Assembly (NCBI GenBank): GCA_964576865.1
Contig: CAZNVK010000008.1
Location: forward strand, 570 to 64,569
Origin: an uncultured Candidatus Poseidoniales archaeon
Lineage (GTDB): Archaea > Thermoplasmatota > Poseidoniia > Poseidoniales > Thalassarchaeaceae
Reading direction: 5' to 3'
Length of the DNA stretch: 64,000 nucleotides
This document shows positions 27,840-63,575 of this stretch, piece after piece. Position numbers and translations under genes: made by a program. The notes under the pieces are model-generated. The model was not told the origin of the DNA. It did no database searches and saw only the letters and a program-made list of their open reading frames with translations. The number at the start of each line of letters is the position of its first letter. The first letter of the stretch is position 1.

Positions 27840-27947
27840 CTCCCGAATTATCTCTCAAAAACTGCAGTTTCCGATAATTCGACCGTAGGTCGAGTGCAAA
27901 ACTCCAGTTCCGGTTGCTTGAATACAGAATACGCCATCTGCGAGACG

Positions 27948-28595: not shown

Positions 28596-28704
28596 TCGAA
28601 AACGACTCGATTTAGGATGATGTTCGAGGAGGCGATTCTCGCATACGTGAGTCCGTAGGACTCAAACCGAAGCGTAATAGGATAATCCGGATTGGATTCA
28701 GTTC

Positions 28705-32060: not shown

Positions 32061-32181
32061 TGTTCGAACCGCTCGCGGAGAACGCGACTAGCGCAGCGCA
32101 CGCTGCCCTCCCACCAACCCAACCTCCGCGTGCTCCGCGTGCTCAGCGTGAGGCACCCCTGACGAATGGAGGTGAACTCTG

Positions 32182-33162: not shown

Positions 33163-33167
33163 GCCGA

Positions 33168-34106: not shown

Positions 34107-34296
34107 TTCAATACCAAAGACCCTACGTTATGGGCCTGTTTCAGCGCACTGTGATGGTGCAGAATAAGCAGCGAGAGCAGCCCAATCCACTTTGTCGAGG
34201 TGCCCTGTAATCAACAACATATATCTGTGGTATGAGGCTCGCGACGAAGCGTAGGTGTGCCCAGCGTACGCTAACGATGAAAGGATTGGTAATGCA

Positions 34297-35901
34297 ATGG
34301 CTGGCGAGAAATCCGAGGAAGCCAATTTCACCAATATCGTGGTGGGCTCCGTGGCAACCACTCTGGTCCTCCTTCTGATCCTCCCTATGATCTTCGTCGC
34401 GGGCAAATCCACTTACTACTCCGCCTATGTGGAGGGGGGGGATAGCGACACTGAGAAACTCGCCCAAGTCTCCGATATGAGGGACTCGTTAGCGGACACT
34501 TCTGACTCAGATGTCAACGGTTATTTCATCGCTAACACCATGTCGACTCCAATGTTGGTCAACGATTGGAAGGACCCTCACAGAACCGCTTTGATGGTTA
34601 TTGGTCCAGAAAAACCAATCGCTGAAACTGAAGCGCAAGCAATTTTCGATTTCGTCACCGAGAAAGGAGGCAAGGTAATCGTTGCTGCAGACGGGACGAA
34701 TGCCAACCGTCTAGCCGAGAAATTCGGAGTGACCTTCTTCGATGCTCCTCTGAATGACGAGAACCAATTCTGGTTGGAGTATGAGAACGGAGAGGCGGTT
34801 CGTGGTTCCTGGCTCAATGTATGGGGATTGGCCTCAGTATCGCAAGACGTAAACGATCTGGAGGCTTCCTACCTCAGACAGGGTTGTGTCGATGCCCTTG
34901 ATCGCCCTGAGAATCGCTTGAACTGCCGACTGCCAGTTATGTTCCGCTCACCTACGGGAATGAAGTTCGAGCCATTGCCAATGGACACCACAAACCCAAA
35001 TCATCGTGATGTCAACATTCTTTCGATGGCCTCATCATCTGCTTTCATCGACATCCAAGGTAATGGTCGAGCCGATGATCCCAAGAATCCAGCTCCAGGA
35101 GATCTCTCGACGATTATCCGCATCGATTATCCCAATATCACCGCCTTCGATCAGGTGACGGCCGGTAGCGGCGGACTAGGCGGGAATACTCGAGAACTCT
35201 CGGTCACTGGTAGTATCGTATTCGTCGCGGATGAGGAGGCATTCTCTAACCGGATGTGGAATCTTGATGTTGCCGAAGAGAACAAGATGAGTCGAACCTG
35301 CGAGCAGCACACGAATCATTGCTGGCGAGACATCGTACGTGATACAGATTGGGAAGGAAACGAGTTGTACTTCGAACTCCTGATCAATGATATGATGGAA
35401 CACGACAATCAGAAAATGGCGAAGTCTGTACGTACCGACCATAGCAATTTCCAAATCGTCTTCGACGAGAGTCGTCACGTTACAGGAATCATCTCCGCCC
35501 CCTTCGTCGAAGCGATGGGAACCGTCGTTCTCCTGACGTCGAATACTTTCCTCAAGTGGCTCGTTGTCCTCAATGTCGGCCTGCTGCTTCTCGTCGCAAT
35601 GATGGTTGTTCCCGAGAAGGAGAATTGGCGCCATGTCTTCGATCTCACGCGTTTCAAGGACCGCCCCAATAAATTGGATCCAGGCACCTATCGCACACGT
35701 GTGCAGCAGGCGTTATTCACCAAGGTCAGAGTTCATTACGACCTCACCCGCGACCAGATGGCGGTTAAGCCGCCGGCTGAGATTCAAACGATGATCGGAG
35801 ACCCCCGACTCGTGGAATTGGCATATAGCCAGAGCCGAAAATACACTCCCCAGGAATTGCGACAGCTGATGGTCGCGATACGACGCTGGGGTAAGAACTG
35901 A
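34297..35901 (+). CDS. Hypothetical membrane protein, first gene of the MoxR-DUF58 cluster
   Basis: N-terminal TM, large extracytoplasmic domain, and a C-terminal TM (VVLLTSNTFLKWLVVLNVGLLLLVAMMVV). Possibly DUF4350-like; unverified. The ORF opens with GTG at 34255. Confidence 0.55.
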   Translation: MAGEKSEEANFTNIVVGSVATTLVLLLILPMIFVAGKSTYYSAYVEGGDSDTEKLAQVSDMRDSLADTSDSDVNGYFIANTMSTPMLVNDWKDPHRTALMVIGPEKPIAETEAQAIFDFVTEKGGKVIVAADGTNANRLAEKFGVTFFDAPLNDENQFWLEYENGEAVRGSWLNVWGLASVSQDVNDLEASYLRQGCVDALDRPENRLNCRLPVMFRSPTGMKFEPLPMDTTNPNHRDVNILSMASSSAFIDIQGNGRADDPKNPAPGDLSTIIRIDYPNITAFDQVTAGSGGLGGNTRELSVTGSIVFVADEEAFSNRMWNLDVAEENKMSRTCEQHTNHCWRDIVRDTDWEGNELYFELLINDMMEHDNQKMAKSVRTDHSNFQIVFDESRHVTGIISAPFVEAMGTVVLLTSNTFLKWLVVLNVGLLLLVAMMVVPEKENWRHVFDLTRFKDRPNKLDPGTYRTRVQQALFTKVRVHYDLTRDQMAVKPPAEIQTMIGDPRLVELAYSQSRKYTPQELRQLMVAIRRWGKN

Positions 35902-35927
35902 AAAAAACAGAAAATGGAGAGAGAAGA

Positions 35928-36932
35928 ATGACTGAAGAAAAAGCAGCGACCAAGAAGAAGGCCGCAGGGACCAAGAAAGTGAGCGATAAGCTCGCTGCCG
36001 TCGGTGCGATCGGACAAGCGATCAGCACCGAGGTACAGAAGGTGATTATTGGAAAGAGCCACGTGATCGACAATGTGTTGGTCAACATCCTGTCCAATGG
36101 AAACCTCCTGTTCGAGGATTACCCGGGCCTTGCAAAGACCCTGATGACGAATACGTTTGCCGATGCGCTCGGCTGCGACTTCAAGCGTGTACAGTTCACG
36201 CCTGACCTGTTGCCAGCCGATATCACGGGAACGAATATCTACGATGCGAAGAAGGGAGAGTTCACGTTCAAGCCTGGACCTATCTTCTGCAACCTACTCC
36301 TGTCTGACGAGATTAACCGTGCGCCACCAAAGACGCAAGCGGCTCTTCTCGAGGCCATGCAGGAGAAGCAGGTGACCATCGGAACCGTCACCCACAAGCT
36401 CCCAGCTCCGTTCCTGACGATGGCGACCCAGAACCCTGTCGAGCAGGAAGGAACTTACCCACTACCTGAAGCTCAGCTTGACCGATTCATGTTCAAGATG
36501 AGTGTCGGATACCCAGACCGCGCAGATGAGGACGAAATCCTCGCTCGACGTATCGCCCGAAAGAAGGACGAGGTCGAGGTTGAGGTCATCACTGACCCAG
36601 CACGTGTGGTTGCAATGCAGCAAGCGATTGAGGATGTCTACGTCGACCCAGCAGTTCGCATGTACATGGTCGAGATTGTCTCGCGAACCCGTGAGGACCC
36701 ACGAGTGCTCGTCGGTTCCTCGCCACGTGGTTCGCAGGCTCTGTTGAAGACGAGCCGATCCGCCGCTGCAATGCGCGGTCGCGACTTCGTGACTCCTGAC
36801 GATGTGAAGTCGGTTGCAACCCTCGCGGTCGCCCACCGATTGATCCTCAAGCCTGAGCACCAGATCAAGGGACTGGAGACTGACGAAGTCATCTCGGACA
36901 TCCTGCGTCAGGTACCAGTGCCAACAGTGTGA
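35928..36932 (+). CDS. MoxR-family AAA+ ATPase
   Basis: LLFEDYPGLAKT (Walker A region), LLLSDEINRAPPKTQAALLEAMQE (Walker B/sensor), and VGSSPRGSQALL. Confidence 0.9.
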   Translation: MTEEKAATKKKAAGTKKVSDKLAAVGAIGQAISTEVQKVIIGKSHVIDNVLVNILSNGNLLFEDYPGLAKTLMTNTFADALGCDFKRVQFTPDLLPADITGTNIYDAKKGEFTFKPGPIFCNLLLSDEINRAPPKTQAALLEAMQEKQVTIGTVTHKLPAPFLTMATQNPVEQEGTYPLPEAQLDRFMFKMSVGYPDRADEDEILARRIARKKDEVEVEVITDPARVVAMQQAIEDVYVDPAVRMYMVEIVSRTREDPRVLVGSSPRGSQALLKTSRSAAAMRGRDFVTPDDVKSVATLAVAHRLILKPEHQIKGLETDEVISDILRQVPVPTV

Positions 36933-36969
36933 GACAGTCGAACGACTGAAGAAAGGGAGGTGAGAGCCG

Positions 36970-38286
36970 ATGGCATGGAGCAGAAAATCAGCGATGTTCG
37001 CCGCGCTGGCGATAGCATTGTACCTGCTTGGACTGGTGCTGCGAAATCAGCAATTGGTCACCGTCGCCGTGGTTCTCCTCTCATTCCTCACCTACGCGGC
37101 CTTCCGCACCACCCACGCAGATGTCGCATCGAGCGGCCGTCGTCTTGACGACGCGGAAGCCGACGCGGGAATCCAATTACAGACAATCATCGCCATGAGG
37201 AAGCTATCATCAGCACGCGTCTTCGAAGATGGTGAGATCGATGTCGTTCTCAGAATCCAGAACCGTTCAACTCTCTCCAAGGTTCTGGAGGTCCGAGACA
37301 GGGTCCCCGAAGTCATGCGAATCAAGAAGGGGGCGAATTACGTCCTGATGGAACTCGGTGGCCGAAAGGAAACCGAGATCGCCTACACGATTGAGGCCCC
37401 ATTGCGTGGATTCTACACAATCGGACCCGTATGTGTACGCGTACAGGATGCATTCGGCCTGTTCCACAATGAGCGCGAGATTCATCTCTACGATGATTTC
37501 CTCGTATTCCCAAAGATGGAGGACATCAAGGACGCGCTCATCAAGAGTCGTGTGCCGAAGATTTTCACCGGTGCGGTCAATATCCGCAACCCTGGTGAGG
37601 GAACCAATTTCTACAATCTGCGAGAATACATCCCCGGAGACCCGATGAAGAAGGTCAACTGGAAGGCGTGGGCTCGCTCTGGCAAGATGATGGTCAACGA
37701 ATTCGAGCGAGATGCTGTCAGCGACATCATTCTGATCATCGACAGCCGCTCTATCAGTGAGACCGGACCGGTCAGCCGGAATTCTCTGGTGTACAGCACT
37801 CGAGCGGCTGCCAGTCTCGCCCAGTATTTCCTAGCAAGGCGAGACTCGGTTGGCTTGGTGACCTATGGAGACGAAATCGTTTCCGTCGACCGCGATACCG
37901 GAAAGAAGCAACTCTACGTTATTTTGACCAAGCTCGCGGGCGCGATGGCAAAAGGAAACACTCCATTGAAGGTCGTCACCAACCGTATTCTACCACACAT
38001 CAACCGTGGTAGTCCAATCATCATCATGAGTCCACTCGAGGACGACCCGACCATCATGGACGCAGTACGCGACCTGAGGGCGCGCAATTTCGACGTGACC
38101 ATCCTTTCACCCTCGAGCCTTGAGTTTGAATTCGACGCACGAAGACTCGACAGAACTGGATACGAGGTTCTCAAGACCGAGCGTGACATCCTAATCAGCG
38201 AGTTGCGAGGTCTTGGTGCGAATGTGATGGATTGGGAACCGGACATGATGCTGGTTACCGCACTCGCAGGAGCGAGAGGATTCTGA
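36970..38286 (+). CDS. DUF58 (vWA-like) protein
   Basis: Two N-terminal TM segments. YIPGDPMKKVNWKAWARSGKMMVNEFE is the DUF58 signature. Sits downstream of MoxR, as is usual. Confidence 0.85.
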   Translation: MAWSRKSAMFAALAIALYLLGLVLRNQQLVTVAVVLLSFLTYAAFRTTHADVASSGRRLDDAEADAGIQLQTIIAMRKLSSARVFEDGEIDVVLRIQNRSTLSKVLEVRDRVPEVMRIKKGANYVLMELGGRKETEIAYTIEAPLRGFYTIGPVCVRVQDAFGLFHNEREIHLYDDFLVFPKMEDIKDALIKSRVPKIFTGAVNIRNPGEGTNFYNLREYIPGDPMKKVNWKAWARSGKMMVNEFERDAVSDIILIIDSRSISETGPVSRNSLVYSTRAAASLAQYFLARRDSVGLVTYGDEIVSVDRDTGKKQLYVILTKLAGAMAKGNTPLKVVTNRILPHINRGSPIIIMSPLEDDPTIMDAVRDLRARNFDVTILSPSSLEFEFDARRLDRTGYEVLKTERDILISELRGLGANVMDWEPDMMLVTALAGARGF

Positions 38287-53505: not shown

Positions 53506-53590
53506 TGGTGCAGGAGGTAGGATTCGAACCTACGAAGCACTACGCACTGGGACCTAAACCCAGCCCCTTTGACCGCTCGGGTACCCCTGC
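53506..53590 (-). tRNA. tRNA-Leu (anticodon TAG), CCA encoded
   Basis: Minus strand reads GCAGGGGTACCCGAGCGGTCAAAGGGGCTGGGTTTAGGTCCCAGTGCGTAGTGCTTCGTAGGTTCGAATCCTACCTCCTGCACCA. Anticodon loop TTTAGGT and a long variable arm. Confidence 0.9.
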
Positions 53591-53694: not shown

Positions 53695-54705
53695 ATGTCA
53701 CGTATCGGCGTTCTCGGTTTGGGCAATTGGGGAACGGCCCTTTCCAAGGTGTGGTGCGAGGATGGCCACAATGTGCTTGGGTGGACGATCGAACAGGAAG
53801 TCTACGAGTCGCTAATGACCTCAAATATCAACGAGAAGTACCTTCCTGGTGATGAGATTCCAGACCTCGACGTTACGATGGAAATGTCAGATCTCACCGA
53901 TGCCTGTGAGATACTGATACTGGCTTTGCCGAGTGGCGTAATCCTCTCCGTGGTCAACGACCTGATCCCCCTGCTTCGCCCCTCCCATGTTCTGCTAGAC
54001 CTTGCTAAAGGATTGGCGCCGACAGCCGAGAGCGAGTCGGGGATGATTTCACAGGAGATCGAGGATAGGCTGGCGGCTGCCGGGAAGTCGAATCCTGTGG
54101 TGGTTCTGACCGGCCCGACGATCGCGCCGGAGGTCGCGCGCGGCGTGATGACTACAGCGGTCGTCGCCTGTCATGACAGATCGGTCGCCAATCGGATTGC
54201 TGAGAGATTGTCGACCGAGACTTTGGTGTTGACTGCGACCGATGATATCGATGGGGCTGAATTGTGGGGTGCGTACAAGAATACGGTCGCCCTTGCCTGT
54301 GGGCTGGTCGATGGCCTGCGCGGCAGTATCGGCGGTGATAATCTCAAGGCCGCGCTCGTGCTTGCTGGATTTTCTGAGGGAATAAAATTGCTGGAGGCGA
54401 TGGGGGCTGAGGCCTCGACGGCTTTTGGGCCGGCGGGGATCGGCGATCTGTACGTGACGGCGACCAGCCCGAGTTCGCGGAATCGGACTCTGGGTGAGAA
54501 ATTAGGTTCGGGCAAGTCGCTCGAAGAATCGCTCGGGGAGATGCACATGGTCGCTGAAGGCGTTCGAGCGAACCGAATGTTCCTGAATCGCGCGCGTCGG
54601 TTGGGACTCGAGGTTCCTTTCCAGCGCGCGCTGGGCGACCTGCTGTCAGGAGATGCTGAGGTCGGCGATGCTGTTCGAAGCATGGTCGAGGCTTACGAGT
54701 CCTGA
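53695..54705 (+). CDS. gpsA: NAD(P)H-dependent sn-glycerol-3-phosphate dehydrogenase (bacterial type)
   Basis: IGVLGLGNWGTAL dinucleotide fold, LAKG, GPTIAPEVA, KN(T)VALACG and RNRTLGEKLG blocks. Confidence 0.9.
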   Translation: MSRIGVLGLGNWGTALSKVWCEDGHNVLGWTIEQEVYESLMTSNINEKYLPGDEIPDLDVTMEMSDLTDACEILILALPSGVILSVVNDLIPLLRPSHVLLDLAKGLAPTAESESGMISQEIEDRLAAAGKSNPVVVLTGPTIAPEVARGVMTTAVVACHDRSVANRIAERLSTETLVLTATDDIDGAELWGAYKNTVALACGLVDGLRGSIGGDNLKAALVLAGFSEGIKLLEAMGAEASTAFGPAGIGDLYVTATSPSSRNRTLGEKLGSGKSLEESLGEMHMVAEGVRANRMFLNRARRLGLEVPFQRALGDLLSGDAEVGDAVRSMVEAYES

Positions 54706-54776
54706 TCCGGGGCTGCAAACCCCGTTAGTGCGCGGAATGTTTGATTGCCGCGAGCCGGCGATGAGGAGCGAGGGAG

Positions 54777-55004
54777 ATGGCCGCGGCGGAATTGACCGAG
54801 TTTGAGACGCGGCTCCTGAAGTGGCTCGCTGCATCGGATTTCGAAGAGGTACCATGGTCAACCAAGCGAGCCGCTGAGGCCTTCAAGGTCAACGAAAAGG
54901 ATGTCTACGAGGCTTTGGCCGCCTTGACAGCCAAGGTCCCGCATAATATCCAGATTTACTACGAAGACGATGCGATTCGCATCGTCGCCGACGACGCCCT
55001 CTGA
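54777..55004 (+). CDS. Small acidic hypothetical protein
   Basis: 75-aa ORF with GAGGAG 9 nt upstream of the ATG and good GC3 bias. No recognisable motif. Confidence 0.45.
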   Translation: MAAAELTEFETRLLKWLAASDFEEVPWSTKRAAEAFKVNEKDVYEALAALTAKVPHNIQIYYEDDAIRIVADDAL

Positions 55005-55019
55005 AGCAAGGTGGACACC

Positions 55020-55961
55020 TCAATTCAAGTCGACTTGGCCCGGGTCCACCTTGACCGGATCTCGACTTACCAGAATATCTCGCCAGCGCGGCCGGCGCAG
55101 GTCGTTGACCTCGTCTATGAATCCTCGACGCACGTGCAGAGAAATCTGATCGATGACGACGACAACGACGAACATCACGATGATCAAAGCGAGGACTTTG
55201 TCATAGAGTTGGAATGGTGAGAGGTAGTGATTCATGTACCAACCGATACCACCCGCACCGACCAGTCCGATGACAGACCCGTGACGAACATTGTACTCGA
55301 ACATGAAAAGCATCTGACTGAGCAGGGCGTTACTCGCTTCCGGGATGGCGAAGAAGCGCGCCACCTGCCAGCGCGGCAGACCCATGGCGCGCGCTACTTC
55401 GAGGGGCTCCTTGCTGACACCCTCCAGCGCCTCGTATTGCAGTTTCCCGAGGTAACCGACGGTGTACATGGTCATGGCAAGAACACCCGCGAGCGGCCCG
55501 ATGCCGACGATGATGACGAAGATCAATGCCCAGATGAGAGAGGGGAGGACTCGCATTGCTGCAAGGATTTGTCGTGTGGTCTGAGACAACCAATAAGGCG
55601 AGAGATTGGAGGCTGCCATCGCCGCCAGTGGCAATGAGATAATCATGCCAAAGACCGTAGCGAGAATTGCGATTTCGATGGTCTGAGTCATGCCGACGAC
55701 GGCTGGTGAACAGAGGAAATCAGATTCGAAGGTGCATGGTGGATGGGTCCAGCCGGCGCGCTCTGTCAGTACGCTAAAATCGGGAGGAAGAGCTTCTGCG
55801 CCGAGGATGAGGAGATTGCTCCAACCATCGACCAATTTCCAAAATGTAATCTGTAGATGGTTGGTGATTAGCAGAGTGATGATTCCGATGATGACGCCGG
55901 CACGTAGCACGGGCCGGCGTGCGAGAAGTCGTAGACTGCTCGTAAGACGTGACTCAGTCAA
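55020..55961 (-). CDS. ABC importer permease, PhnE-like
   Basis: 313 aa, about 6 TM, with EAA-like loop EALEGVSKEPLEVARAMGLPRWQ. TTG start 6 nt after GGGAGGA. Confidence 0.85.
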   Translation of the reverse strand: MTESRLTSSLRLLARRPVLRAGVIIGIITLLITNHLQITFWKLVDGWSNLLILGAEALPPDFSVLTERAGWTHPPCTFESDFLCSPAVVGMTQTIEIAILATVFGMIISLPLAAMAASNLSPYWLSQTTRQILAAMRVLPSLIWALIFVIIVGIGPLAGVLAMTMYTVGYLGKLQYEALEGVSKEPLEVARAMGLPRWQVARFFAIPEASNALLSQMLFMFEYNVRHGSVIGLVGAGGIGWYMNHYLSPFQLYDKVLALIIVMFVVVVVIDQISLHVRRGFIDEVNDLRRPRWRDILVSRDPVKVDPGQVDLN

Positions 55962-55977
55962 AGTGAATCCTCCCGAC

Positions 55978-56745
55978 TCACGAAGACGCCTCCTCGATCA
56001 GAGGTAGGCTAGGCCTCGCTTCCTCATCCTCCTCAAATGGAATGAGTCGGCGCCCACGCAACTGCAGGACGCGGTCACAAAACGTACGGGCGCGCACTGG
56101 ATTATGGTCGACGAGCAGAATCGCCATCCTATGGTCGTCGGCCATATGTCGGAACAACTCGATGATACCGCGGGCGGTCTCTGCATCGAGTTCACCAAGG
56201 CACTCGTCTGCCAGCAGAAGATCCGGTTCCTGCAACATCGCGCGCGCGATTGCAACGCGTCTCTGCTGCCCCCCCGATAAGCGATTCACGGATTCGAGAG
56301 TCTTGTCGGTCAATCCGACCTCATCGATGACCTCGCGAGTCTCATCTCGCATCTTCTTGCTAGGCAGAGATAGTGCGGTCTGTAGGAAACTCGCCTCTGT
56401 CAATGCCCCCATCAAGACGTTGTATCCAACGGTCTGATGCTGAACCAGCCCCAGCCTCTGTGGTATCAGACCGATGGCACCTTTCTCGGCTCGTGTCGTG
56501 GAGGTGCTACAGCACTCGACCGAACCGGAAAGGGGCTTGACGAGCCCAGCTGCAGTGCGCAGCAGGGTAGTCTTACCGATACCAGAACGGCCGGTCAGTC
56601 CTACGATTTCACCGGCCCGAACCTCGAGATTCAATCCCTCGATCAAAGGCGACTCGTTATCGAAGCCAATGGCCGCATCGGTCATGCGGAGACGGACGGG
56701 GTTCGGATCTTCCACCGACACCCCGCCCGTCCTCTCCATGCTCAC
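55978..56745 (-). CDS. ABC importer ATP-binding protein, PhnC-like
   Basis: Walker A GRSGIGKTT, signature SGGQQRRVAIAR, and Walker B LLLADE. GTGA overlap with the binding-protein stop. Confidence 0.9.
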   Translation of the reverse strand: MSMERTGGVSVEDPNPVRLRMTDAAIGFDNESPLIEGLNLEVRAGEIVGLTGRSGIGKTTLLRTAAGLVKPLSGSVECCSTSTTRAEKGAIGLIPQRLGLVQHQTVGYNVLMGALTEASFLQTALSLPSKKMRDETREVIDEVGLTDKTLESVNRLSGGQQRRVAIARAMLQEPDLLLADECLGELDAETARGIIELFRHMADDHRMAILLVDHNPVRARTFCDRVLQLRGRRLIPFEEDEEARPSLPLIEEASS

Positions 56746-57728
56746 TCGTCGTACTTCTCATCGAAGTATGCTGCGATGCCCGGGATTGCTCCGATAGCAT
56801 CGCTGTACGAGCCGAGGTGCTCCTCAGTCGTGACCTGCGAGATTCCTGGAGTGTTCAGAACACCATCGAGAATCTCGACGCCGCCTTCCTCAGTGTTCAG
56901 AGCGAGGAAAGCCTCGACGATGGCGTCGATCTTCTCCTGGCTCGTGGTCTCGGTATTGACCATCACTGGGTGGCTCGGGACCTGACCGAAGGCGGGCTCG
57001 AGAGGACGGTACTGGTCACGCTCGAGGCACCAGTCGTTTCCTTCGCAGTGGTCCTCGTAGGAAGTGGTCTTGCCGAATGCGACATCGCCGACTCCCTCTG
57101 TCATACAGCGCAAGGCACCGCTGTAGCTGTAGTAGAGGTCTCCCTTCTCAGGAATCGAGGCATTACCGAAGTGCTCCTCGATGGTTGTGCGTAGGGAAGC
57201 GATGTCATCAGCGTCTCCGCTGACATCGACGATTCCGTTGTTGATCATATATCCCATCGGCATCAGCATTCCAGCCGACTTGAGCCAGCCCGTGTGGCAG
57301 GAATCCTTGCCCTCGAGGTCCTCGAGAGACTGGATTTCCGAGTCAGCGAGGACCCAAGCCTGCGCTGTGTAGTAGGTGGTACCATCGCTCTTCTGGTCGG
57401 CCAGAATCGCATCGAGGCCGTGCTGCTTCCAGGCGATCCATGCAGCGCCTCCATCAAGGAAAGCGATGTCTGCGTGACCGAAGCGAAGAGCCTCGATTGC
57501 AGCGATGTCCGAGGTGATGGGGTAGAGCTCCACCTCGTATCCCGACTGAGCTGCGATGAAGTCAGCAAGCACCTGTGGGTTGGCTGACGGATCTTCGTAG
57601 TCGTCCTGAGTCTTGAAAGCGATTCGGATCACCTTCTCATCTTCTTCTTTCGATTCAAGGCATCCGGCCATGCCAGCGCTCAGAATCAGAGTCGCCAGCA
57701 GGGCATTCATCAACAAATTCATTCTCAT
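56742..57728 (-). CDS. Substrate-binding lipoprotein, PhnD-superfamily, with transferrin-like Fe3+/carbonate-binding motifs
   Basis: Lipobox AGC. Blocks FLDGGAAW, TYYTAQAWV, GKDSCHTGWLKSAGMLMPMG, YSYSGALRCMTEGVGDVAF and FGQVPSHPVMV parallel a transferrin lobe (see findings). Confidence 0.85.
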   Translation of the reverse strand: MRMNLLMNALLATLILSAGMAGCLESKEEDEKVIRIAFKTQDDYEDPSANPQVLADFIAAQSGYEVELYPITSDIAAIEALRFGHADIAFLDGGAAWIAWKQHGLDAILADQKSDGTTYYTAQAWVLADSEIQSLEDLEGKDSCHTGWLKSAGMLMPMGYMINNGIVDVSGDADDIASLRTTIEEHFGNASIPEKGDLYYSYSGALRCMTEGVGDVAFGKTTSYEDHCEGNDWCLERDQYRPLEPAFGQVPSHPVMVNTETTSQEKIDAIVEAFLALNTEEGGVEILDGVLNTPGISQVTTEEHLGSYSDAIGAIPGIAAYFDEKYDE

Positions 57729-57924
57729 TTATTCACTTCCATTTCAGGGTTCGTCGTATTTCCGACGAGGCGCGCGACCGACCATCTCGATATATAGTTT
57801 AGGCTGCCCTAAACTTCTCGGTTTTCGCTATACTAAAAGCCTACAATTAGAAATTCAAGCGCATGAACACGCCTCCGACAAGCAGCCGATAGCCATATCG
57901 TGCGCGAGGCTCCCGTCGAAGCAC

Positions 57925-59928
57925 ATGACTCGCGATGATGCCCTACGCTTCGCAGTCCTCCTGACCATGTTCGCCATGGTCACATCGTGGGTTCCGATGA
58001 GCGCACCCGATCATCAATTACAGGAATTTGACGAGCGTCGAGAACAACTCGGAGGAGACGGCCCGACGCTCGAAGAACAATGCAGCTCGATCACCTTCGA
58101 GGACATGTTCGAGTACTCGAAGGCGATCTTCGATATACAGGTCGCAAACGATTGGAACTCTGCCCAAGTTGGAGCGGTGGCGTGGATCAACGGAAGTCTT
58201 TCCGACGAAGTTCGGCAGAAGTTGGACGAATATGTCGCAGCGGTTTATCCCAGTGGGGACGATGGATGGATCTCCACAGATGAGAGAGAGGGAGTTCGAG
58301 CGATTGCCTCAGAGTGCGTTCAACACACCCTAACCCGACTCGGTATGCGCGACGGCAGCCCTCACAGGGGGGGAGAGGGAACCGATTGGAAGAACGTCAG
58401 TTGGACCGAGGACGAGGTTCTGGTCGAGGAGTGGAACCTCGTCCCGCCTCGCCATTCAGAGATTCGGGATTGCAGTGGCTTCGGCAGCAGCAGCGACTGC
58501 GTCGAGGTGCCTGTTGAGCCGGCGAGTGAGAGGGATTGCGATACCGATATCGACGCGTCAGCTGGTGCTGATGAGTGCCGAATGACGCTGTGGCTCAATG
58601 CGACGATGACAATTTCTCATCTCAATGACCCGAATGAGTTCACAGTGGCGTTCAATGCCTCGAATATGTCGAATGTCGAGTATCACATCACCTTCCCGCA
58701 GACGGATGGATTGAGGCTCGACATGTGGGAGGAATGCGAGGGTCGAGATGTCGAGGCGGCGGTTGGCGATTATGCGGGCGAGGCCCCGATTCGAGGCAGT
58801 TGTGTCGGCGATGGTTCAAGCTCTTACGAAATCGCCGAGAACGAGGATGGTAGTCTGACCTACTCCTTCTACCCTGAGATGCCGTACTGGCCTATCGGTG
58901 AGGATCTATTCGCCGATTTCACAACCGCGCCGATTCCTGTGGATGAGCCGCCGGAGTGGACCGATGCTGCTCCGGCGGATGGCGCATGGTTCCCGCGCGC
59001 GAGCGGGGGTTCGCAAGTTATTGCTGATTGGAACAGCATCCAGAATTGGTTCGTCGACGAGGCAGGTGTTGCTTCGCTAGAAGTCGTTTGCCGCGGCGAT
59101 GCTGGATTGGATGTGGCCTATGAGGATCGTGAGATTTCGATGGATGTACCCCGTGGCCAGGCCGGCGAGGTGACTTGTGAGGCGATTGACCGAGCCGACC
59201 AATCATCTGGCAGCCGGACTTGGAATGTCGGTGTTCCATTCCAGATATCCACCTCTACCACGGATTTGGCCGACCCTCACCCAATCACACTGAGTCCGAC
59301 CTCGGGTTGGCCTGAATTGAGTGTCGAGATTGGATTCACATCCGAACATGGTGGCAGCGCTACCTACTCGGGTCCTTTCTCACTCTACATGTCCGAAATC
59401 ACAGTGGACGTGGCGGCTGGCGGTACTGTTCCTGGCACTGCCTACGTTGTGGTTCGCGTGACAGGGGACGAAGTCTACTCGATGCTGGCAACCTACGACT
59501 TGGGGATTGAGAAGGCTAGCAGCGCACCGATTGTGACAGTCAATAGTGAGGGTTGGGACGGTAGTTCTTGGTCGATGAGCGGGCAATTCTCCGACCCTGA
59601 TGGGGAGGCGGTCTCATTCACTCTGCTCATCGATGGCTCGGCGGTAGGCGAGGTCAGCGTCAGCGGTAATAATTGGGCGACTCCGGCCATTGATTTCTCA
59701 GTCTGGGCTGAGGGAACTCACACGGTTCAGGTCGATGCATGCGATGATTCTGGCATGTGCGTGAATCAGCAAAGAATCGTCGATAATTCTCACCTCTTCG
59801 CCGAGCCTGAGCCCGAGCCTGGAGACATTGAGGAACCTCAACCCCTTCCTGGATTGCCTGCCATGGGGCTCGGTGGACTACTCGCCGCGGCATCTGCCGC
59901 ACTCATATACTCGGGCCGACGCGACTGA
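57925..59928 (+). CDS. Large acidic cell-surface protein with PGF-CTERM-like tail
   Basis: Signal/TM at the N-terminus ([19 protein letters not shown]) and C-terminus [27 protein letters not shown]. The ORF formally opens at 57613, but that part overlaps the divergent gene. Confidence 0.65.
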
Positions 59929-59932
59929 GAAC

Positions 59933-60985
59933 ATGAGCTTCTCCGGGACGGTCGAGAAGGAGTCCCATGAGGGTGGTCTGATGATCGCTTTCGAGGGCAA
60001 GGCGCCTCGATTGGGTGCCACGCTTCGAATCATCGGCGGCAAGCCGATTGGACGCGTGAATACGGTGATTGGCGCCGTCGACCGAGCTCTGATTCACATT
60101 CATCCTGTCGCCGATGACATCGATGCAATTAGCGCGGTCGGTTCTCCTGTCGAAATCGCTCCGCGCGAGCGTCGCGATCGCTCCGACCGTGGCCGAGGAC
60201 GCTACGATCGTCGCGAGGGCGGCCGAGGTCGCGATGGTGGCAGATACCAGAGTCGTGAGAATCGTGGATTCGACCGCCGCAATGACCGCCGAGACAATCG
60301 CGGCGGCAACCGCGGAGGAGATTGGGATTGCCCCAAGTGCAAGAACAACAACTTCGCCTTCCGCGACAAGTGCAATCGCTGCGATGCTGAGCGCCCAGAA
60401 GGCGCCGGAAGCAGCAGCGGACACGGCGGACAGCGTGGCGGCGGCAAATTCCAGCGCCGCGATGACCGCGGCTTCGACCGCCGCAATGACCGCGGTGGCA
60501 GGGACTTCCGCGACAACCGCGGTCGAGATCGAGGCGGGCGCGACAACAAAGAAGGTCGAAGTGGGGACTGGGATTGCCCCAAGTGCAAGAACAACAATTT
60601 CGCCTTCCGCGACAAGTGCAACCGCTGCGATGCAAGCCGCCCTAGCGGAGGTGGCAGCAGCGGCGGCAGCCGTGGAGGCAACCGCGGAGGACGTGACAGT
60701 CGTGGCGGCGGAGACCGCAGAGATTCACGCGGCGGAGACCGCAGAGATAACCGGGGCGGAGACCGAGGCGGAAGCCGCGGAGGCGACCGTGGAGGACGCA
60801 GCGGCGGTGACCGCAGAGATTCGCGTGGCGGTGATAGACGCGGCCCTCGCCCAGGACCTCGCGACGGACCGGACAGGGGACGTTCACCTGGAAGCGGTAG
60901 CAAGCCGCGACGCCCAGGATTCCGCGGAGGCGGAAGGGGCGGCCCAAGCCGCAACCGACCAGGGCGCGGCAGCGGACGCCGCTGA
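59933..60985 (+). CDS. Gar1-like beta-barrel protein fused to two RanBP2-type zinc fingers and RGG/RG-rich low-complexity regions
   Basis: N-terminal [43 protein letters not shown] resembles the H/ACA RNP Gar1 core. It carries two copies of [24 protein letters not shown] (W-x-C-x2-C-x3-N-x6-C-x2-C). The remainder is RGG/RDxRGG repeats. Confidence 0.7.
60323..60387 (+). repeat. Zinc-finger coding repeat, copy 1
   Basis: 65 nt, 63/65 identical to 60569-60633 (offset 246 nt). Confidence 0.9.
60569..60633 (+). repeat. Zinc-finger coding repeat, copy 2
   Basis: See copy 1. Confidence 0.9.
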
Positions 60986-61030
60986 GTAAGCAACCCCAGC
61001 ATTCATCCCCACCTCACGCGAGCAGCGGTC

Positions 61031-62125
61031 ATGGCGAGCAGCGCGGAGATGCTGTGGATCGACGTGCTCGAGCACGAAGAAGCGGGCGAGCGCGAAGAAG
61101 CGCTCGAACTCGCACAAAAAATCACCCGCATAGAGCCCGACCATACGTCCGCCTGGAGGATGGTCGCCCGCATGACCCTCCCCCCGCAGAGACGCGGACA
61201 GCAAGAGATGCCGACGCTGGCGCAGGCCGCGACCGCGCTCGGGGCGCTGCGCCGCGTCGTACAACTCGAACCCGACGACCGCGAGTCGTGGATTCTCGGC
61301 GGAATCCTCCTCGTGGACCACCTCGGTATGCTCGAGGAAGCCTTGGTCTGGTGGCAGGAGCGCAGAGTGGTTGAACCGTCAGAGGTGACGCCATTGGTGG
61401 AGCAGATCGCGATTCTTGTGCGACTTGGCATGTATACGCAGGCGGGTGAGCTGCTTGAAGTGCTGTTCAGCGAGGGCATGGAATCGCCTGATAGCCGCCA
61501 ATTGGTAAAGATGGATCAAGTTCGAAAAATGGTCGAAAAGGCTGCGAAGATGGAAAAGGATGAGGTTTTCAGACCACAGAATCCGAAGCATCCGAGATGG
61601 GAGATAATCGATCGGATGAAGGCTCGCAAACCGCTTTCTGAGACTTTTTTTCTGTTCACTTTCGTAGCACCGATCGTCTTCTTGATAGGGACTGTGGCAA
61701 TGCAACTTCTAGGTGGGACTCAGTACGGATTCATTCTGGTTTTCCTGATTATTCTCGGGTTGTTCATGGGGGTCTCGCGAATGGGCTCTGGCCTGCTTCA
61801 CTCGCTCAATAGACACGCCCTGGACCTCGACCGGGCGCTCGACGTGGAGGCTACTTCTGGGATGGTCTGCGTGCCTGATGGCATTCGCGGCAGCAAGCTG
61901 TATGAGCACCTGCTCGGGAAGCGTCCTGAAGGATTCCGCGAGCGTCATGAGCGGATTGTTGACGCGGATGAGAAACTCAAACGGAAATGGAAGCCTGTGC
62001 TCCCTGATTTCTCTTCTGTTGGGGATGAATCTTGGTGGGGTGAGGGGGATGAGTCGGGAGATGATTCCTCGGATGCATATGAGGACTCAGATGAGCCGCT
62101 TGAATTGGATGAACTCGAGGATTGA
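61031..62125 (+). CDS. Hypothetical membrane protein with TPR-like N-terminal domain and acidic C-terminus
   Basis: 364 aa. Helical-repeat-like N-terminus, two adjacent TM segments (FFLFTFVAPIVFLIGTVAM, FILVFLIILGLFMGV), and a DE-rich tail. Confidence 0.55.
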   Translation: MASSAEMLWIDVLEHEEAGEREEALELAQKITRIEPDHTSAWRMVARMTLPPQRRGQQEMPTLAQAATALGALRRVVQLEPDDRESWILGGILLVDHLGMLEEALVWWQERRVVEPSEVTPLVEQIAILVRLGMYTQAGELLEVLFSEGMESPDSRQLVKMDQVRKMVEKAAKMEKDEVFRPQNPKHPRWEIIDRMKARKPLSETFFLFTFVAPIVFLIGTVAMQLLGGTQYGFILVFLIILGLFMGVSRMGSGLLHSLNRHALDLDRALDVEATSGMVCVPDGIRGSKLYEHLLGKRPEGFRERHERIVDADEKLKRKWKPVLPDFSSVGDESWWGEGDESGDDSSDAYEDSDEPLELDELED

Positions 62126-62188
62126 GTAAAGCGTTGGGCGCTTGCCGTGCGGATCATTGCCCGCAGCGGTTCGTGTGCCGGCATTGAC

Positions 62189-63454
62189 TCATGTGCCAGC
62201 CGAGTAATCGTTGAGGTAGGCTATTTGCTCGGCCGTGAGAGTATCGATGTCTACTCCTTCGGCGGCTAGCTTGAGGGCTGCTAATTCGCGGTCCTGCTCT
62301 GCGCTGATGTCGTAGACGATATCATCGTATGAGTCTCCCTCGGCTGCGAGACGGCAAAGCGCGAGGAATTGGTTGGCGAATGACATGTCCATGACTTCAC
62401 TCGGATGTCCTTCGGCGGCTGCAAGATTGACTAGGCGGCCACGTGCGAGCAGGTGGATGGTGCGGCCGCCCGTGAGTTCGAATGCCTCATTATTCTCGCG
62501 AATCGTGTAGATTCGCTCGGCTCGCTCTTCGAGGTCGCCGATATTGATCTCGCAATCGTAATGACCGGTATTGCAGACGATTGCGCCCTCCTTCATTGAA
62601 TCGAAGTGGCGACCGATGATGACGTCCTTCATCCCGGTCGCCGTGCAGAAAACATCACCGATGGCTGCCGCATCGTCCATCTGCATCACGCGGAAGCCAT
62701 CCATCACCGCCTTCAGGGCGGCGAGAGGGTCGACCTCGGTGACGACGACATTGGCTCCCATGCCTCGGGCTCGGTTGGCCAATCCCCTGCCGCAGTGACC
62801 GTATCCCGCGACCACGAAGGTCTTGCCAGCGAGGAGAACGCTGGTGGCGCGAATGATTCCATCGAGCGTGGATTGGCCGGTGCCGTGAACATTATCGAAA
62901 TCCCACTTGGTCGAGGCATCGTTGACCGCGATGACGGGGTAGCGCAATTCGCCAGCCTCGCCCATCGCTCGCAAGCGATGAACTCCAGTTGTGGTCTCCT
63001 CAGTGCCACCGATGACGCCTTCCGCTAATTCGGGATATTGCGCGTGCACGCGGTAAATCAGGTCGGCCCCGTCATCGAGTGTGAGAGTTGGCTTGAATTC
63101 GAGGGTTCGGTCGATCGATTCATAGAATTCCTCTTTATTCTGACCGTACCAAGCGTGGACGCTGTATCCTTCTGCGGCCAACCAAGCGGCCACATCATCT
63201 TGGGTCGAGAGAGGATTGCAGCCGGACCAGGATACTGTTGCGCCGGCTGCTTCGATCGTCTCAATCAGAACTGCCGTCTCCTTGGTGACGTGCAGGCAGC
63301 CAGCCACTCGCTGACCGGCGAGTGGCTGATTCTTGACAGCCTGGGCGCGCAATGCAGCGAGAGCAGGCATTCTGCTACGCGCCCATGCAACCTTCAGACC
63401 TCCCGCCTCTGCGAGCGAGAGGTCTGCCACGGTGTAGCGCTCAGCAGCATCCAT
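62189..63454 (-). CDS. ahcY: Adenosylhomocysteinase
   Basis: SCNPLSTQDDVAA, GYGHCGRG NAD loop, NTGHYDCEI and AEGRLVNL-like (ARGRLVNLAAAEGHP) blocks. Start at MDAAERY; the ORF opens at 63484. Confidence 0.95.
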   Translation of the reverse strand: MDAAERYTVADLSLAEAGGLKVAWARSRMPALAALRAQAVKNQPLAGQRVAGCLHVTKETAVLIETIEAAGATVSWSGCNPLSTQDDVAAWLAAEGYSVHAWYGQNKEEFYESIDRTLEFKPTLTLDDGADLIYRVHAQYPELAEGVIGGTEETTTGVHRLRAMGEAGELRYPVIAVNDASTKWDFDNVHGTGQSTLDGIIRATSVLLAGKTFVVAGYGHCGRGLANRARGMGANVVVTEVDPLAALKAVMDGFRVMQMDDAAAIGDVFCTATGMKDVIIGRHFDSMKEGAIVCNTGHYDCEINIGDLEERAERIYTIRENNEAFELTGGRTIHLLARGRLVNLAAAEGHPSEVMDMSFANQFLALCRLAAEGDSYDDIVYDISAEQDRELAALKLAAEGVDIDTLTAEQIAYLNDYSAGT

Positions 63455-63575
63455 GTCCCGTGGCGGTCGCCTCCGGGTCTTCAAGGTGCGGCTGAGCGAC
63501 CCCCGAAATCGAAGGCCAGCTCAGCCGTTGTGACCCAAAGGGTCACCGTACTACTCAGGCGTCTCGGATGGTGGC

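What the first reader, a model, noticed from the sequence alone, without database searches (positions are those of the whole stretch)
59933..60985. Gar1-like protein with a eukaryote-style GAR/RGG tail and two RanBP2-type zinc fingers
The first 85 or so residues resemble the Gar1 beta-barrel of H/ACA pseudouridylation RNPs ([23 protein letters not shown], compared with the G-x-V-x-D-V-F-G-P-V pattern of Gar1). Archaeal Gar1 proteins that I know are short and lack Gly/Arg-rich domains, whereas eukaryotic Gar1 is flanked by GAR domains.

Here the core is followed by about 265 residues of RGG/RDxRGG repeats. Embedded in them are two near-identical [24 protein letters not shown] modules. These fit the RanBP2/ZRANB2/FUS-type zinc finger consensus W-x-C-x2-C-x3-N-x6-C-x2-C, a single-stranded-RNA-binding finger mainly known from eukaryotes. 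The two finger-coding segments are 63/65 identical at the DNA level (60323-60387 and 60569-60633), which points to a recent internal duplication. The combination resembles FET-family or Gar1 RNA-binding architecture in an archaeon.
Basis: partly seen in the sequence, partly recalled or inferred. Interest (0 to 1): 0.65.

Follow-up and report, generated by a model that had tools for sequence, protein, structure and literature searches.

The report
Archaeal Gar1 with FUS-like RNA-binding tail
A marine group II archaeon encodes a Gar1-type pseudouridylation-complex subunit with a 270-residue arginine/glycine-rich tail and two FUS-type RNA-binding zinc fingers, an add-on that reviews describe as eukaryote-specific.

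Summary
Window 59933-60985 (+) is one 350-aa ORF, and contigs from two independent seawater studies reproduce it with no differences.

- **Gar1 core (residues 1-79).** The single sequence falls below Pfam threshold (E 0.044). Family-level evidence is strong: profile-profile probability 99.2%, a profile hit to Pyrococcus Gar1 at E 2.4e-5, and an AlphaFold model (pLDDT 89) matching solved Gar1 at TM 0.79-0.85.
- **Tail (residues 80-350).** It is predicted disordered, carries net charge +40, and has 16 RGG and 25 RG motifs.
- **Zinc fingers.** Two RanBP2-type fingers score Pfam E 7e-19. Their best solved match is human FUS, and they keep every RNA-contact position of the GGU-reading class.
- **Distribution.** The gene sits in at least 114 Poseidoniales species genomes, in conserved synteny. 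Core and fingers are under strong purifying selection (dN/dS up to 0.12). Finger number ranges 0-4 and protein length 134-461 aa.
- **Correction.** The finger duplication is old. Their near-identity here looks like gene conversion, not recent duplication.
- **Difference from eukaryotes.** The tail is Asp-rich and Phe-poor, and only C-terminal.

I read it as the lineage's H/ACA Gar1 with an added RNA-binding arm. I could not test whether a second canonical gar1 exists, nor Cbf5 or RNA binding. It is a new variant of a known kind, with no description found in the searched literature.

The parts
59933..60985 (+). Whole gene: Gar1-like protein with RGG/zinc-finger tail, 350 aa plus stop
   Evidence: define the ORF. 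One search shows independent assemblies identical over it. Searches give orthologues in at least 114 Poseidoniales species genomes, all in frame; the five complete closest orthologues (L001, L002, L003, L005, L006) share the window's C-terminus [10 protein letters not shown].
59933..60169 (+). Gar1 beta-barrel core, aa 1-79
   Evidence: AlphaFold2 pLDDT 89.1 and pTM 0.78. Foldseek to P. furiosus Gar1 2ey4_D gives TM 0.79/0.85 and rmsd 2.1 A. hhalign to canonical Gar1 gives 99.2%. Profile versus PDB Gar1 gives E 2.4e-5. dN/dS is 0.04-0.12.
60170..60313 (+). Disordered R/G/D-rich linker 1, aa 80-127, net charge +10
   Evidence: pLDDT about 30-47. Composition.
60314..60403 (+). RanBP2-type zinc finger 1, aa 128-157; Cys at 133, 136, 147, 150
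   Evidence: Pfam PF00641 best stretch 129-155. Best PDB match is the human FUS zinc finger, E 1.5e-7. pLDDT about 79. RNA-contact positions are D, N, F, F, R, N.
60404..60562 (+). Disordered R/G/D-rich linker 2, aa 158-210, net charge +7
   Evidence: pLDDT about 32. Composition. DNA repeat family D3 links it to linker 1.
60563..60646 (+). RanBP2-type zinc finger 2, aa 211-238; Cys at 215, 218, 229, 232
   Evidence: Second PF00641 stretch. The 66-nt core differs from finger 1 at 3 synonymous sites, but from the orthologous finger 2 of L001 at 7 sites. pLDDT 76-79.
60647..60982 (+). C-terminal RGG tail, aa 239-350: 11 RGG, net charge +21. Includes a 24-nt (8-aa GGDRRDSR) tandem array at 60705-60831
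   Evidence: TRF period 24, 5.3 copies; composition; pLDDT about 30.
57613..59928 (+). Conserved upstream neighbour: large protein with no Pfam match and a PGF-CTERM-like end. Its stop lies 4 nt before the gar1 ATG, and its true start is probably internal, near aa 92-105
   Evidence: No Pfam hit. tblastn finds it upstream of gar1 in 76 of 80 loci. The same arrangement occurs in distant family members.
61031..62125 (+). Conserved downstream neighbour: TPR-containing protein, 45 nt after the gar1 stop
   Evidence: Pfam TPR_14 E 1.5e-8. Present downstream in 67 of 80 loci.

Best explanation
The gene encodes the Gar1 subunit of the box H/ACA pseudouridylation ribonucleoprotein of a marine group IIb archaeon (Thalassarchaeaceae, Poseidoniales).

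Residues 1-79 form the Gar1 six-stranded barrel. In characterised H/ACA RNPs this barrel docks on the catalytic domain of Cbf5. It acts through Cbf5's thumb loop to position the substrate and speed product release, without touching RNA itself.

In this lineage the barrel is followed by a 271-residue, strongly basic, disordered arm. Three RG/RGG-rich, Asp-interspersed segments are separated by two RanBP2-type zinc fingers of the FUS/EWS/ZRANB2 class. That class reads single-stranded GGU/GGN.

I propose the arm gives the RNP a direct, multivalent hold on RNA. The fingers would capture G-rich single-stranded stretches of pre-rRNA or other substrates. The RGG segments would add low-specificity affinity and chaperone activity. 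Together they would tether the enzyme to its substrates and raise the local substrate concentration. This is the role suggested for the GAR domains of eukaryotic Gar1.

Shown here: domain identities, disorder prediction, assembly correctness, order-wide conservation and purifying selection. Inferred: Cbf5 binding, zinc and RNA binding, and the functional consequence.
For: Gar1 identity:
- Pfam and NCBIfam both give Gar1 as the top, though weak, hit for the core.
- 13 of 14 close and 13 of 32 diverse orthologue cores hit Pfam Gar1, and no other family is hit at E up to 1e-3.
- The family profile finds P. furiosus Gar1 at E 2.4e-5.
- hhalign to canonical Gar1 gives 99.2% probability.
- A profile of canonical Gar1 reciprocally retrieves the marine group II proteins, e.g. 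P0047 at E 3e-12 against 5.8 billion sequences.
- The AlphaFold model's 12 best PDB matches are all Gar1 from archaea, yeast, insect and human.
- JGI/IMG already names several members 'rRNA processing protein Gar1'.

Core-gene behaviour:
- 114 confirmed loci in species-representative Poseidoniales genomes. Among the 80 listed loci there is one per assembly, except one assembly that appears twice.
- Synteny is conserved across the order.
- dN/dS is 0.04-0.12 for the barrel and up to 0.05 for the fingers.
- Length changes in the tail always stay in frame.

Tail as an RNA binder:
- PF00641 E 7e-19.
- The closest solved relative is the FUS zinc finger, including the 6g99 chain.
- All positions that PMC6384913 lists as RNA contacts are present in the FUS/EWS pattern D, N, F, F, R, N.
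- 16 RGG motifs and net charge +40.
- Three folded islands in an otherwise pLDDT-30 chain.
- Yeast Gar1 RGG domains measurably alter H/ACA catalysis and appear to touch substrate RNA (PMC8096250).
Against: The single sequence is below the curated Gar1 thresholds of Pfam and NCBIfam. NCBI's pipeline calls family members 'hypothetical protein' or 'zinc finger protein'.

The gar1-tfb linkage seen for canonical gar1 in related Thermoplasmata is absent here. There is therefore no positional orthology.

I could not inspect a whole Poseidoniales genome, so a separate short gar1 has not been excluded. The presence of cbf5 and nop10 in the same genome was also not checked.

No RNA-seq run covering the gene could be found. 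Many Thalassarchaeaceae species carry only a 55-120-aa basic tail without fingers, so the fingers are dispensable for the core function.
Confidence: 0.7

Rival explanations
1. Neofunctionalised paralogue. The protein keeps a Gar1-fold barrel but no longer belongs to the H/ACA RNP. It would act as a general FET-like RNA-binding protein or chaperone, for instance in mRNA or rRNA handling. A separate short canonical Gar1 elsewhere in the genome would serve Cbf5.
For: The core is divergent, below Pfam and NCBIfam thresholds. The gene is not next to tfb as canonical Thermoplasmata gar1 is. Instead it sits in a conserved block with a surface protein and a TPR protein. The RGG-finger-RGG layout copies the C-terminal half of FUS, a general RNA binder.
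Against: Neither search returned a second Gar1-like sequence attributed to Poseidoniales: the exhaustive profile search carries no names or taxonomy, and the canonical-profile search is not exhaustive. tblastn of canonical Gar1 on about 0.84 Mb of held Thalassarchaeaceae DNA hits only this gene. The barrel is under strong purifying selection. It superposes on Gar1 better than on Naf1 or translation-factor barrels. IMG assigns it the Gar1 function.
Confidence: 0.17
2. The tail is functionally neutral or not RNA-directed. It would be a slippage-driven low-complexity expansion. The fingers would serve protein-protein contacts, as in Ran-, ubiquitin- or SAMP-binding NZF-type fingers, or nothing at all.
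For: Tail length and finger number vary widely between species, 0-4 fingers and 134-461 aa. The tail is built of 12- and 24-nt tandem units prone to slippage. The second-best solved match after FUS is a Ran-binding Nup153 finger.
Against: Fingers are under dN/dS up to 0.05 with saturated synonymous divergence. They retain all six RNA-contact positions of the GGU-binding class rather than the Nup153 or NZF pattern. The reading frame and the conserved C-terminal end are kept through every length change. A basic tail is present in every complete family protein examined.
Confidence: 0.1
3. Assembly or annotation artefact: a chimeric or collapsed repeat region, or two genes fused by a sequencing error.
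For: Short-read assemblies often break or frameshift in this region. Database homologues end in adapter sequence or switch frame.
Against: Contigs from two independent studies span the ORF with zero differences. The architecture is reproduced in dozens of independent MAGs and single-cell genomes, including a long-read 1.6-Mb contig, L003.
Confidence: 0.01

Closest known systems
Archaeal Gar1 (for example Pyrococcus furiosus PF1791; PDB 2ey4, 2hvy)
   Same: The same about 75-residue six-stranded barrel: TM 0.79-0.85, rmsd about 2 A, 21-22% identity. The same position at the N-terminus of the protein. Homology is supported at 99.2% by hhalign. Some other archaeal Gar1s also have a basic K/R-rich tail of up to about 55 residues.
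   Different: Canonical proteins are 75-133 aa and described as lacking GAR regions (PMC7991803). This one is 350 aa, with 16 RGG motifs and two zinc fingers. It lacks the gar1-tfb gene linkage. The core is divergent enough to fall below curated HMM thresholds.
Eukaryotic Gar1/GAR1 (yeast Gar1p, human GAR1/NOLA1)
   Same: [quoted passage not shown] The presumed accessory RNA-binding role is shared (PMC8096250).
   Different: Eukaryotic GAR domains flank the core on both sides. In fibrillarin the repeats are spaced mostly by Phe; that eukaryotic Gar1 GAR domains are also Phe-spaced, carry essentially no acidic residues and contain no zinc fingers is my own knowledge, not tested here. This tail is only C-terminal, is 13% Asp (RDxRGG and DRRDSRGG units) and carries two RanBP2 fingers. 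Arginine methylation is unknown.
FET proteins (FUS, EWS, TAF15), C-terminal RGG2-ZnF-RGG3 module
   Same: The finger is most similar to the FUS zinc finger among solved structures, E 1.5e-7. It shares its RNA-contact pattern: D4, N14, aromatic 17, aromatic 19, R20, N24. The finger is embedded between RGG segments as in FUS.
   Different: There is no RRM and no SYGQ-rich low-complexity domain. There are two fingers rather than one. The first Cys pair is C-x2-C, against C-x4-C in FUS. The module is attached to a Gar1 barrel in an archaeon.
ZRANB2 (ZNF265) tandem RanBP2 fingers
   Same: Two tandem ssRNA-type RanBP2 fingers with C-x2-C spacing in finger 2. Hits are significant, E 4e-5 to 1e-4. The class binds GGU (PMC6384913).
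   Different: ZRANB2 has R19-R20 where this protein has F19-R20. ZRANB2 fingers are N-terminal and followed by an RS domain.
ArnA of Sulfolobus (RanBP2-type zinc finger plus FHA domain)
   Same: It is a precedent that RanBP2-type fingers exist in archaea (PMC6509490).
   Different: It has a different partner domain and function (regulation of archaellum expression). It has no RGG tail, and no relationship to Gar1 is known.

Membership tests
Gar1 (Pfam PF04410; H/ACA RNP subunit) | Significant match of the sequence to the Gar1 core profile | tested here: met
   The single sequence is sub-threshold: E 0.044 and 14 bits against a cut-off of 29.3. Family-level evidence is met. 13 of 14 and 13 of 32 orthologue cores hit PF04410, best E 1.5e-7. 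The profile versus PDB Gar1 gives E 2.4e-5. hhalign gives 99.2% and E 6e-20. A reciprocal hit from a canonical Gar1 profile gives E 3e-12.
Gar1 (Pfam PF04410; H/ACA RNP subunit) | Six-stranded beta-barrel fold superposable on solved Gar1 | tested here: met
   AlphaFold2 pLDDT 89.1. The top 12 Foldseek PDB matches are all Gar1, with TM 0.70-0.79 (query) and up to 0.86 (target). Naf1 and aIF5B barrels score lower.
Gar1 (Pfam PF04410; H/ACA RNP subunit) | Binds the catalytic domain and thumb loop of Cbf5 within a Cbf5-Nop10-L7Ae-guide RNA particle | not testable with these tools
   No complex prediction or biochemistry is available. cbf5 and nop10 are not in the 64-kb window.
Gar1 (Pfam PF04410; H/ACA RNP subunit) | Is the genome's Gar1 orthologue, i.e. 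the only Gar1 homologue, present as a core gene | tested here: inconclusive
   It behaves as a core gene: 114 species genomes, with one locus per assembly among the 80 listed except one assembly. No canonical Gar1 attributed to Poseidoniales appeared. However, no whole genome could be scanned.
Gar1 (Pfam PF04410; H/ACA RNP subunit) | gar1 immediately upstream of tfb (supportive synteny seen in related Thermoplasmata, not strictly defining) | tested here: not met
   Canonical Thermoplasmata gar1 is followed by TFIIB and tRNA intron endonuclease genes. Here, and in 67 of 80 orthologous loci, a TPR protein follows, and no tfb lies in the held DNA.
RanBP2-type zinc finger (Pfam PF00641), ssRNA-binding class | W-x-C-x2-4-C-x3-N-x6-C-x2-C consensus and a profile score above the curated cut-off | tested here: met
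   Both fingers fit the consensus. PF00641 scores 67.1 bits against a cut-off of 27, in two stretches.
RanBP2-type zinc finger (Pfam PF00641), ssRNA-binding class | RNA-contact residues D4, N14, aromatic 17, R or W at 19, R20, N24 (criteria of PMC6384913) | tested here: met
   The window fingers read D, N, F, F, R, N. This is the FUS/EWS pattern with Phe in place of Trp at position 19 (sequence; criteria; alignment to FUS).
RanBP2-type zinc finger (Pfam PF00641), ssRNA-binding class | Binds one zinc ion and single-stranded GGU/GGN RNA | not testable with these tools
   Requires biochemistry.
Eukaryotic-type GAR/RGG domain (as in Gar1, fibrillarin, nucleolin) | A long (over 50 aa) disordered segment with more than 10 RGG or RG repeats | tested here: met
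   16 RGG and 25 RG in 271 aa. The C-terminal segment alone has 11 RGG in 112 aa. pLDDT is about 30.
Eukaryotic-type GAR/RGG domain (as in Gar1, fibrillarin, nucleolin) | Repeats spaced mainly by Phe with few acidic residues; GAR domains on both sides of the Gar1 core | tested here: not met
   The tail has 35 Asp and 9 Phe, four of the Phe inside the fingers. There is no N-terminal GAR segment. The eukaryotic pattern is taken from PMC9957100 and PMC7991803.
Eukaryotic-type GAR/RGG domain (as in Gar1, fibrillarin, nucleolin) | Arginine methylation by a PRMT | not testable with these tools
   The only SAM-methyltransferase-domain hit among the window ORFs scanned (12011-13060, minus strand) resembles UbiG-type and lysine methyltransferases, not PRMTs. 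No proteomic data are available.
FET family (FUS/EWS/TAF15) | SYGQ-rich low-complexity domain plus RRM plus RGG-ZnF-RGG | tested here: not met
   Only the RGG-ZnF-RGG part is present. No RRM or other domain was found by Pfam. It is not a FET member.

The most novel reading that the evidence does not exclude
Poseidoniales may have independently evolved, or acquired from marine eukaryotes, a nucleolar-style, multivalent RGG plus FUS-type zinc-finger module on an rRNA-modification enzyme. This module could drive RNA-dependent clustering, that is condensate-like ribosome-biogenesis foci, in an archaeon without a nucleolus. That would make it a prokaryotic counterpart of GAR-domain-driven nucleolar organisation.
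Probability: 0.15. Interest if true: 0.85.

Novelty: new variant of a known kind. Interest (0 to 1): 0.6.

Why it matters
Reviews of H/ACA RNPs state that archaeal Gar1 lacks GAR regions. They treat RGG domains on Gar1 as a eukaryote-specific innovation, linked to the nucleolus and to phase separation (PMC7991803, PMC8096250).

Here an entire order of very abundant ocean archaea, not closely related to eukaryotes, carries long RGG tails on Gar1. In many species these tails hold one to four FUS-class RNA-binding zinc fingers under strong purifying selection. This points to convergent evolution or horizontal transfer of a 'nucleolar' design.

It offers a simple system, with natural variants carrying 0-4 fingers, for asking what GAR tails do for a pseudouridylation enzyme. 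It also widens the known range of ssRNA-binding RanBP2 fingers.

On the practical side, current pipelines annotate these proteins inconsistently as hypothetical, 'zinc finger protein' or Gar1. Short-read assemblies also often truncate or frameshift them.

Tried and rejected
- Single-sequence search of the core against PDB sequences found nothing; profiles were needed.
- The exact-sequence look-up of the window protein found no record, for either the 350-aa or the 385-aa form.
- The diverse alignment A3 was too variable for the genome scan; A2 was used instead.
- No RNA-seq run could be listed for the gene, so expression is untested.
- Rfam found only a tRNA in the window and no H/ACA sRNA.
- I tried to locate a marine group II tfb locus to look for a second small gar1. 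I used the last homologue search on a Thermoplasmatota TFB. The 120 listed hits were 80-99% identical, and every named one was from Thermoplasmata, Thermoplasmatota or another non-Poseidoniales archaeon. The held loci contain no tfb, so the paralogue question stays open.
- The window methyltransferase at 12011-13060 was tested as a possible PRMT and rejected.
- A phmmer search of the RGG tail against the PDB returned nothing.
- The alternative-frame ORFs over the repeat (60114-60989 plus strand, 60202-61002 minus strand, and others) were rejected as compositional artefacts. Only the RGG frame is continuous with the barrel, contains the fingers and is conserved across species.
Full report
**What is there**

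Window 59933-60985 (+) is a single 350-codon ORF. It starts 4 nt after the stop of the upstream gene. Its N-terminus, MSFSG, is the one conserved in all close orthologues.

The protein has five parts.
- Residues 1-79 form a compact domain.
- Two 24-residue modules, [24 protein letters not shown], sit at 129-152 and 211-234.
- Three Arg/Gly/Asp-rich stretches cover 80-127, 158-210 and 239-350.

The 271-residue tail has 71 Arg, 69 Gly and 35 Asp. It holds 16 RGG and 25 RG motifs, with net charge +40 and pI 11.6. Part of it is a 24-nt tandem array encoding GGDRRDSR.

The finger pattern W-x-C-x2-C-x3-N-x6-C-x2-C occurs only at these two places in all six frames of the window.

**Is it real sequence?**

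Yes. The stretch is held almost word for word by seawater metagenomes from four independent studies. One 14.4-kb contig (run X1) spans all of 59700-61200, and one 2.7-kb contig (run X5) spans 59889-61200. Both show zero differences. Two other runs break only at the finger repeat, as expected for k-mer assemblies.

Orthologues with the same architecture occur in dozens of independent MAGs and single-cell genomes. One lies on a long-read 1.6-Mb contig.

**The N-terminal domain is a Gar1 barrel**

Alone, the sequence hits Pfam Gar1 only at E 0.044 (14 bits, cut-off 29.3). It hits NCBIfam Gar1 equivalogs at E 0.01-0.04.

- Of 14 close orthologue cores, 13 hit PF04410, best E 1.5e-7.
- Of 32 diverse cores, 13 hit at E up to 1e-3, and no other family is hit.
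- A profile of the 32 cores finds Pyrococcus furiosus Gar1 in the PDB at E 2.4e-5. Yeast, human and insect Gar1 follow.
- Profile-profile comparison with nine canonical short archaeal Gar1 proteins gives 99.2% probability and E 6e-20 over 78 columns.
- Reciprocally, a canonical Gar1 profile retrieves the marine proteins at E down to 3e-12 in 5.8 billion sequences.
- An AlphaFold2 model of residues 1-81 (pLDDT 89.1, pTM 0.78) has Gar1 chains as its 12 best PDB matches. P. furiosus 2ey4_D gives TM 0.79/0.85 and rmsd 2.1 A. Yeast 3u28_C, human telomerase H/ACA lobe and insect snoRNP chains follow. These rank ahead of Naf1 and the aIF5B and ATPase barrels.

The fold and homology claims are therefore well supported.

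**The fingers are RanBP2-type, of the RNA-binding class**

Pfam Zn_ribbon_RanBP scores E 7.4e-19, 67 bits against a cut-off of 27, in two stretches. Among solved structures the best match is the human FUS zinc finger (5yvh_B at E 1.5e-7; 6g99_B). Nup153 and ZNF265/ZRANB2 come next.

PMC6384913 lists the RNA-contact positions of this class, in finger numbering: D4, N14, an aromatic at 17, R19 (Trp in FUS and EWS), R20 and N24. It uses 'aromatic at 17 plus the W-x-C consensus' to select putative RNA binders. The window fingers read D, N, F, F, R, N. This is the FUS/EWS pattern with Phe in place of Trp at position 19.

A full-length AlphaFold2 model shows three folded islands, at 1-79, 128-157 and 211-238, with pLDDT 71-82. 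The rest scores about 30.

**Who has it**

Homologues of the core come only from uncultured marine archaea. They are labelled Candidatus Thalassarchaeaceae, Thalassarchaeum, Poseidoniales, marine group II, or more loosely Euryarchaeota or Thermoplasmatota.

An exhaustive HMM search of 1.84 billion representative proteins found 125 clusters.
- The top roughly 110 have the barrel at the N-terminus, followed by basic tails. They reach up to 461 aa and carry 0-4 fingers.
- The weakest hits are ordinary 75-101-aa Gar1 proteins.

A scan of one genome per GTDB species gave 114 confirmed loci, all in Poseidoniales-type MAGs. Among the 80 listed loci there is one per assembly, apart from one duplicate assembly and one mis-binned contig.

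Among the 80 loci kept, 44 have one to four fingers. Most of the others have only a basic R/G/K/S tail, giving proteins of about 134-200 aa where complete; a few are cut off by contig ends or assembly gaps. No finger occurs outside this gene in 775 kb of these loci.

The window's closest relatives are L001-L006, 88-95% identical in the core, from genus-level group MGIIb-O1. They have two or three fingers and 287-379 aa; those that are complete share the C-terminus [10 protein letters not shown].

Gene order is conserved across the order: glycerol-3-phosphate dehydrogenase, ABC transporter, unknown surface protein, this gene, TPR protein, then S-adenosylhomocysteine hydrolase on the opposite strand.

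**Selection and the 'recent duplication'**

Against the five closest species, dN/dS is 0.04-0.12 for the barrel. For the fingers it is up to 0.05 where synonymous divergence (dS 0.5-1.6) is not saturated.

Fingers 1 and 2 are positional orthologues across the genus. Over 28 codons, window finger 1 is closest to L001 finger 1 (94%). Window finger 2 is closest to the finger 2 of L001 and L002 (88%). The duplication is therefore old.

Within the 66-nt core, however, window finger 2 differs from window finger 1 at 3 sites. It differs from its orthologue in L001 at 7 sites. It also ends CDA like finger 1, where every other last finger ends CQA. This is best read as gene conversion of the finger-2 core by finger 1 in this lineage. 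The counts are small, so the inference is tentative.

**How it most likely works**

In characterised archaeal RNPs, Gar1 binds Cbf5 and contacts the root of its thumb loop. It improves substrate placement and product release without touching RNA (PMC4551948). Eukaryotic Gar1 adds RGG domains. In a reconstituted yeast RNP these change catalysis and appear to contact substrate RNA (PMC8096250).

I infer that the Poseidoniales protein is the lineage's Gar1. Its tail would be an accessory RNA-binding arm. The fingers would hold single-stranded GGU/GGN, and the RGG segments would add multivalent, low-specificity affinity. Together they would tether the RNP to pre-rRNA or other targets.

Still inferred: Cbf5 binding, zinc and RNA binding, and any condensate behaviour.

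**What argues against it, and the main rival**

- The core is divergent enough that NCBI's pipeline names members 'hypothetical' or 'zinc finger protein', whereas JGI/IMG names some 'rRNA processing protein Gar1'.
- Canonical gar1 of related Thermoplasmata lies directly upstream of tfb. This gene does not.
- I could not scan a whole Poseidoniales genome, so a separate short gar1 is not excluded.
- The attempt to reach a marine group II tfb locus failed.

The rival is a neofunctionalised paralogue acting as a FET-like general RNA binder. I give it about 0.17.

**Comparison with the known**

- It is a Gar1 by fold and homology.
- It is not a FET protein, because it has no RRM and no SYGQ domain.
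- Its tail is only loosely 'eukaryote-style'. It is Asp-rich and Phe-poor, whereas the GAR repeats of fibrillarin are spaced mainly by Phe. It lies only C-terminal to the core, whereas eukaryotic Gar1 has GAR regions on both sides.
- Basic tails of up to about 55 residues exist on some other archaeal Gar1 proteins. The novelty is therefore one of degree plus the fingers.
- RanBP2-type fingers have an archaeal precedent in Sulfolobus ArnA.
- Full-text searches found no paper linking Poseidoniales with Gar1 or Cbf5, and none describing an archaeal Gar1 with RGG or zinc-finger extensions. A 2021 review states that archaeal Gar1 lacks the GAR regions.

**Verdict**

This is a new variant of a known kind and is moderately to highly interesting. 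Confidence in the Gar1-with-RNA-binding-arm reading is 0.7.

Noticed in passing
window 4893-8702 (-): A single 1268-aa ORF combines a Peptidase_S8 subtilase domain (aa 186-507) with an MFS transporter domain (aa 716-1014). This is an unusual protease-transporter fusion, or possibly two genes read as one.
   Followed up: no
window 4893-8702 (-), 21670-23748 (+), 26613-27839 (+): Three subtilase (S8) genes lie within 64 kb.
   Followed up: no
window 53695-63484; also L086, L087, L088 and most of L001-L080: An order-wide conserved gene block surrounds gar1. It runs glycerol-3-phosphate dehydrogenase, phosphonate-type ABC transporter, a 640-770-aa protein with no Pfam match and a PGF-CTERM-like end, gar1 with its tail, a TPR protein, then AdoHcy hydrolase on the opposite strand. 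Why a Gar1 gene is locked between a surface protein and a TPR protein is unexplained.
   Followed up: partly
proteins P0083-P0142 (second subfamily, N-terminus MF.G.V..SHEGGLL): Many of the long tails in this subfamily end in a conserved short motif, roughly [FY]R[KR][AS][KR]GK..GHAHN..P, which is absent from the window's subfamily. It may be an interaction motif.
   Followed up: no
L077 (PBUF01000091.1): A contig filed under a 'Gammaproteobacteria bacterium' MAG carries the marine group II gar1 block. It is probably a mis-binned contig.
   Followed up: no
proteins P0001, P0025, P0032, P0038, P0044, P0133; P0002, P0054, P0058, P0099: Database homologues often end in translated Illumina adapter (LSLIHI, CLLYTSPSPRD) or change reading frame inside the repeat. 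The tail is systematically truncated or frameshifted in short-read assemblies, so its prevalence is underestimated.
   Followed up: partly
window 60114-60989 (+), 60202-61002 (-), 60129-60635 (-): Long alternative-frame ORFs (Ala/Thr-rich, Pro/Arg/Leu-rich) overlap the RGG-coding repeat. I read them as compositional by-products of the GC-rich repeat, not genes.
   Followed up: partly
window 53509-53590 (-): One tRNA gene. It is the only Rfam match in the window at gathering threshold, and no H/ACA or C/D sRNA was detected.
   Followed up: no
window 23714-38286: A cluster of molybdenum-hydroxylase genes (2Fe-2S, MoCo-binding and FAD subunits at 28705-33162) lies with XdhC (25678-26586), a MobA-like transferase (23714-24295) and a MoxR AAA plus DUF58 pair (35928-38286).
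   Followed up: no
L081-L085 (Thermoplasmata/Thermoplasmatota): Canonical gar1 there sits in an RNA-processing neighbourhood. It lies directly upstream of tfb and next to the tRNA-splicing endonuclease. In four of the five loci (L081, L082, L084, L085) a CTP-transferase-like/NTPase fusion gene lies upstream, and in three of them (L081, L084, L085) TruA-type pseudouridine synthase and SpoU methylase genes lie nearby.
   Followed up: partly
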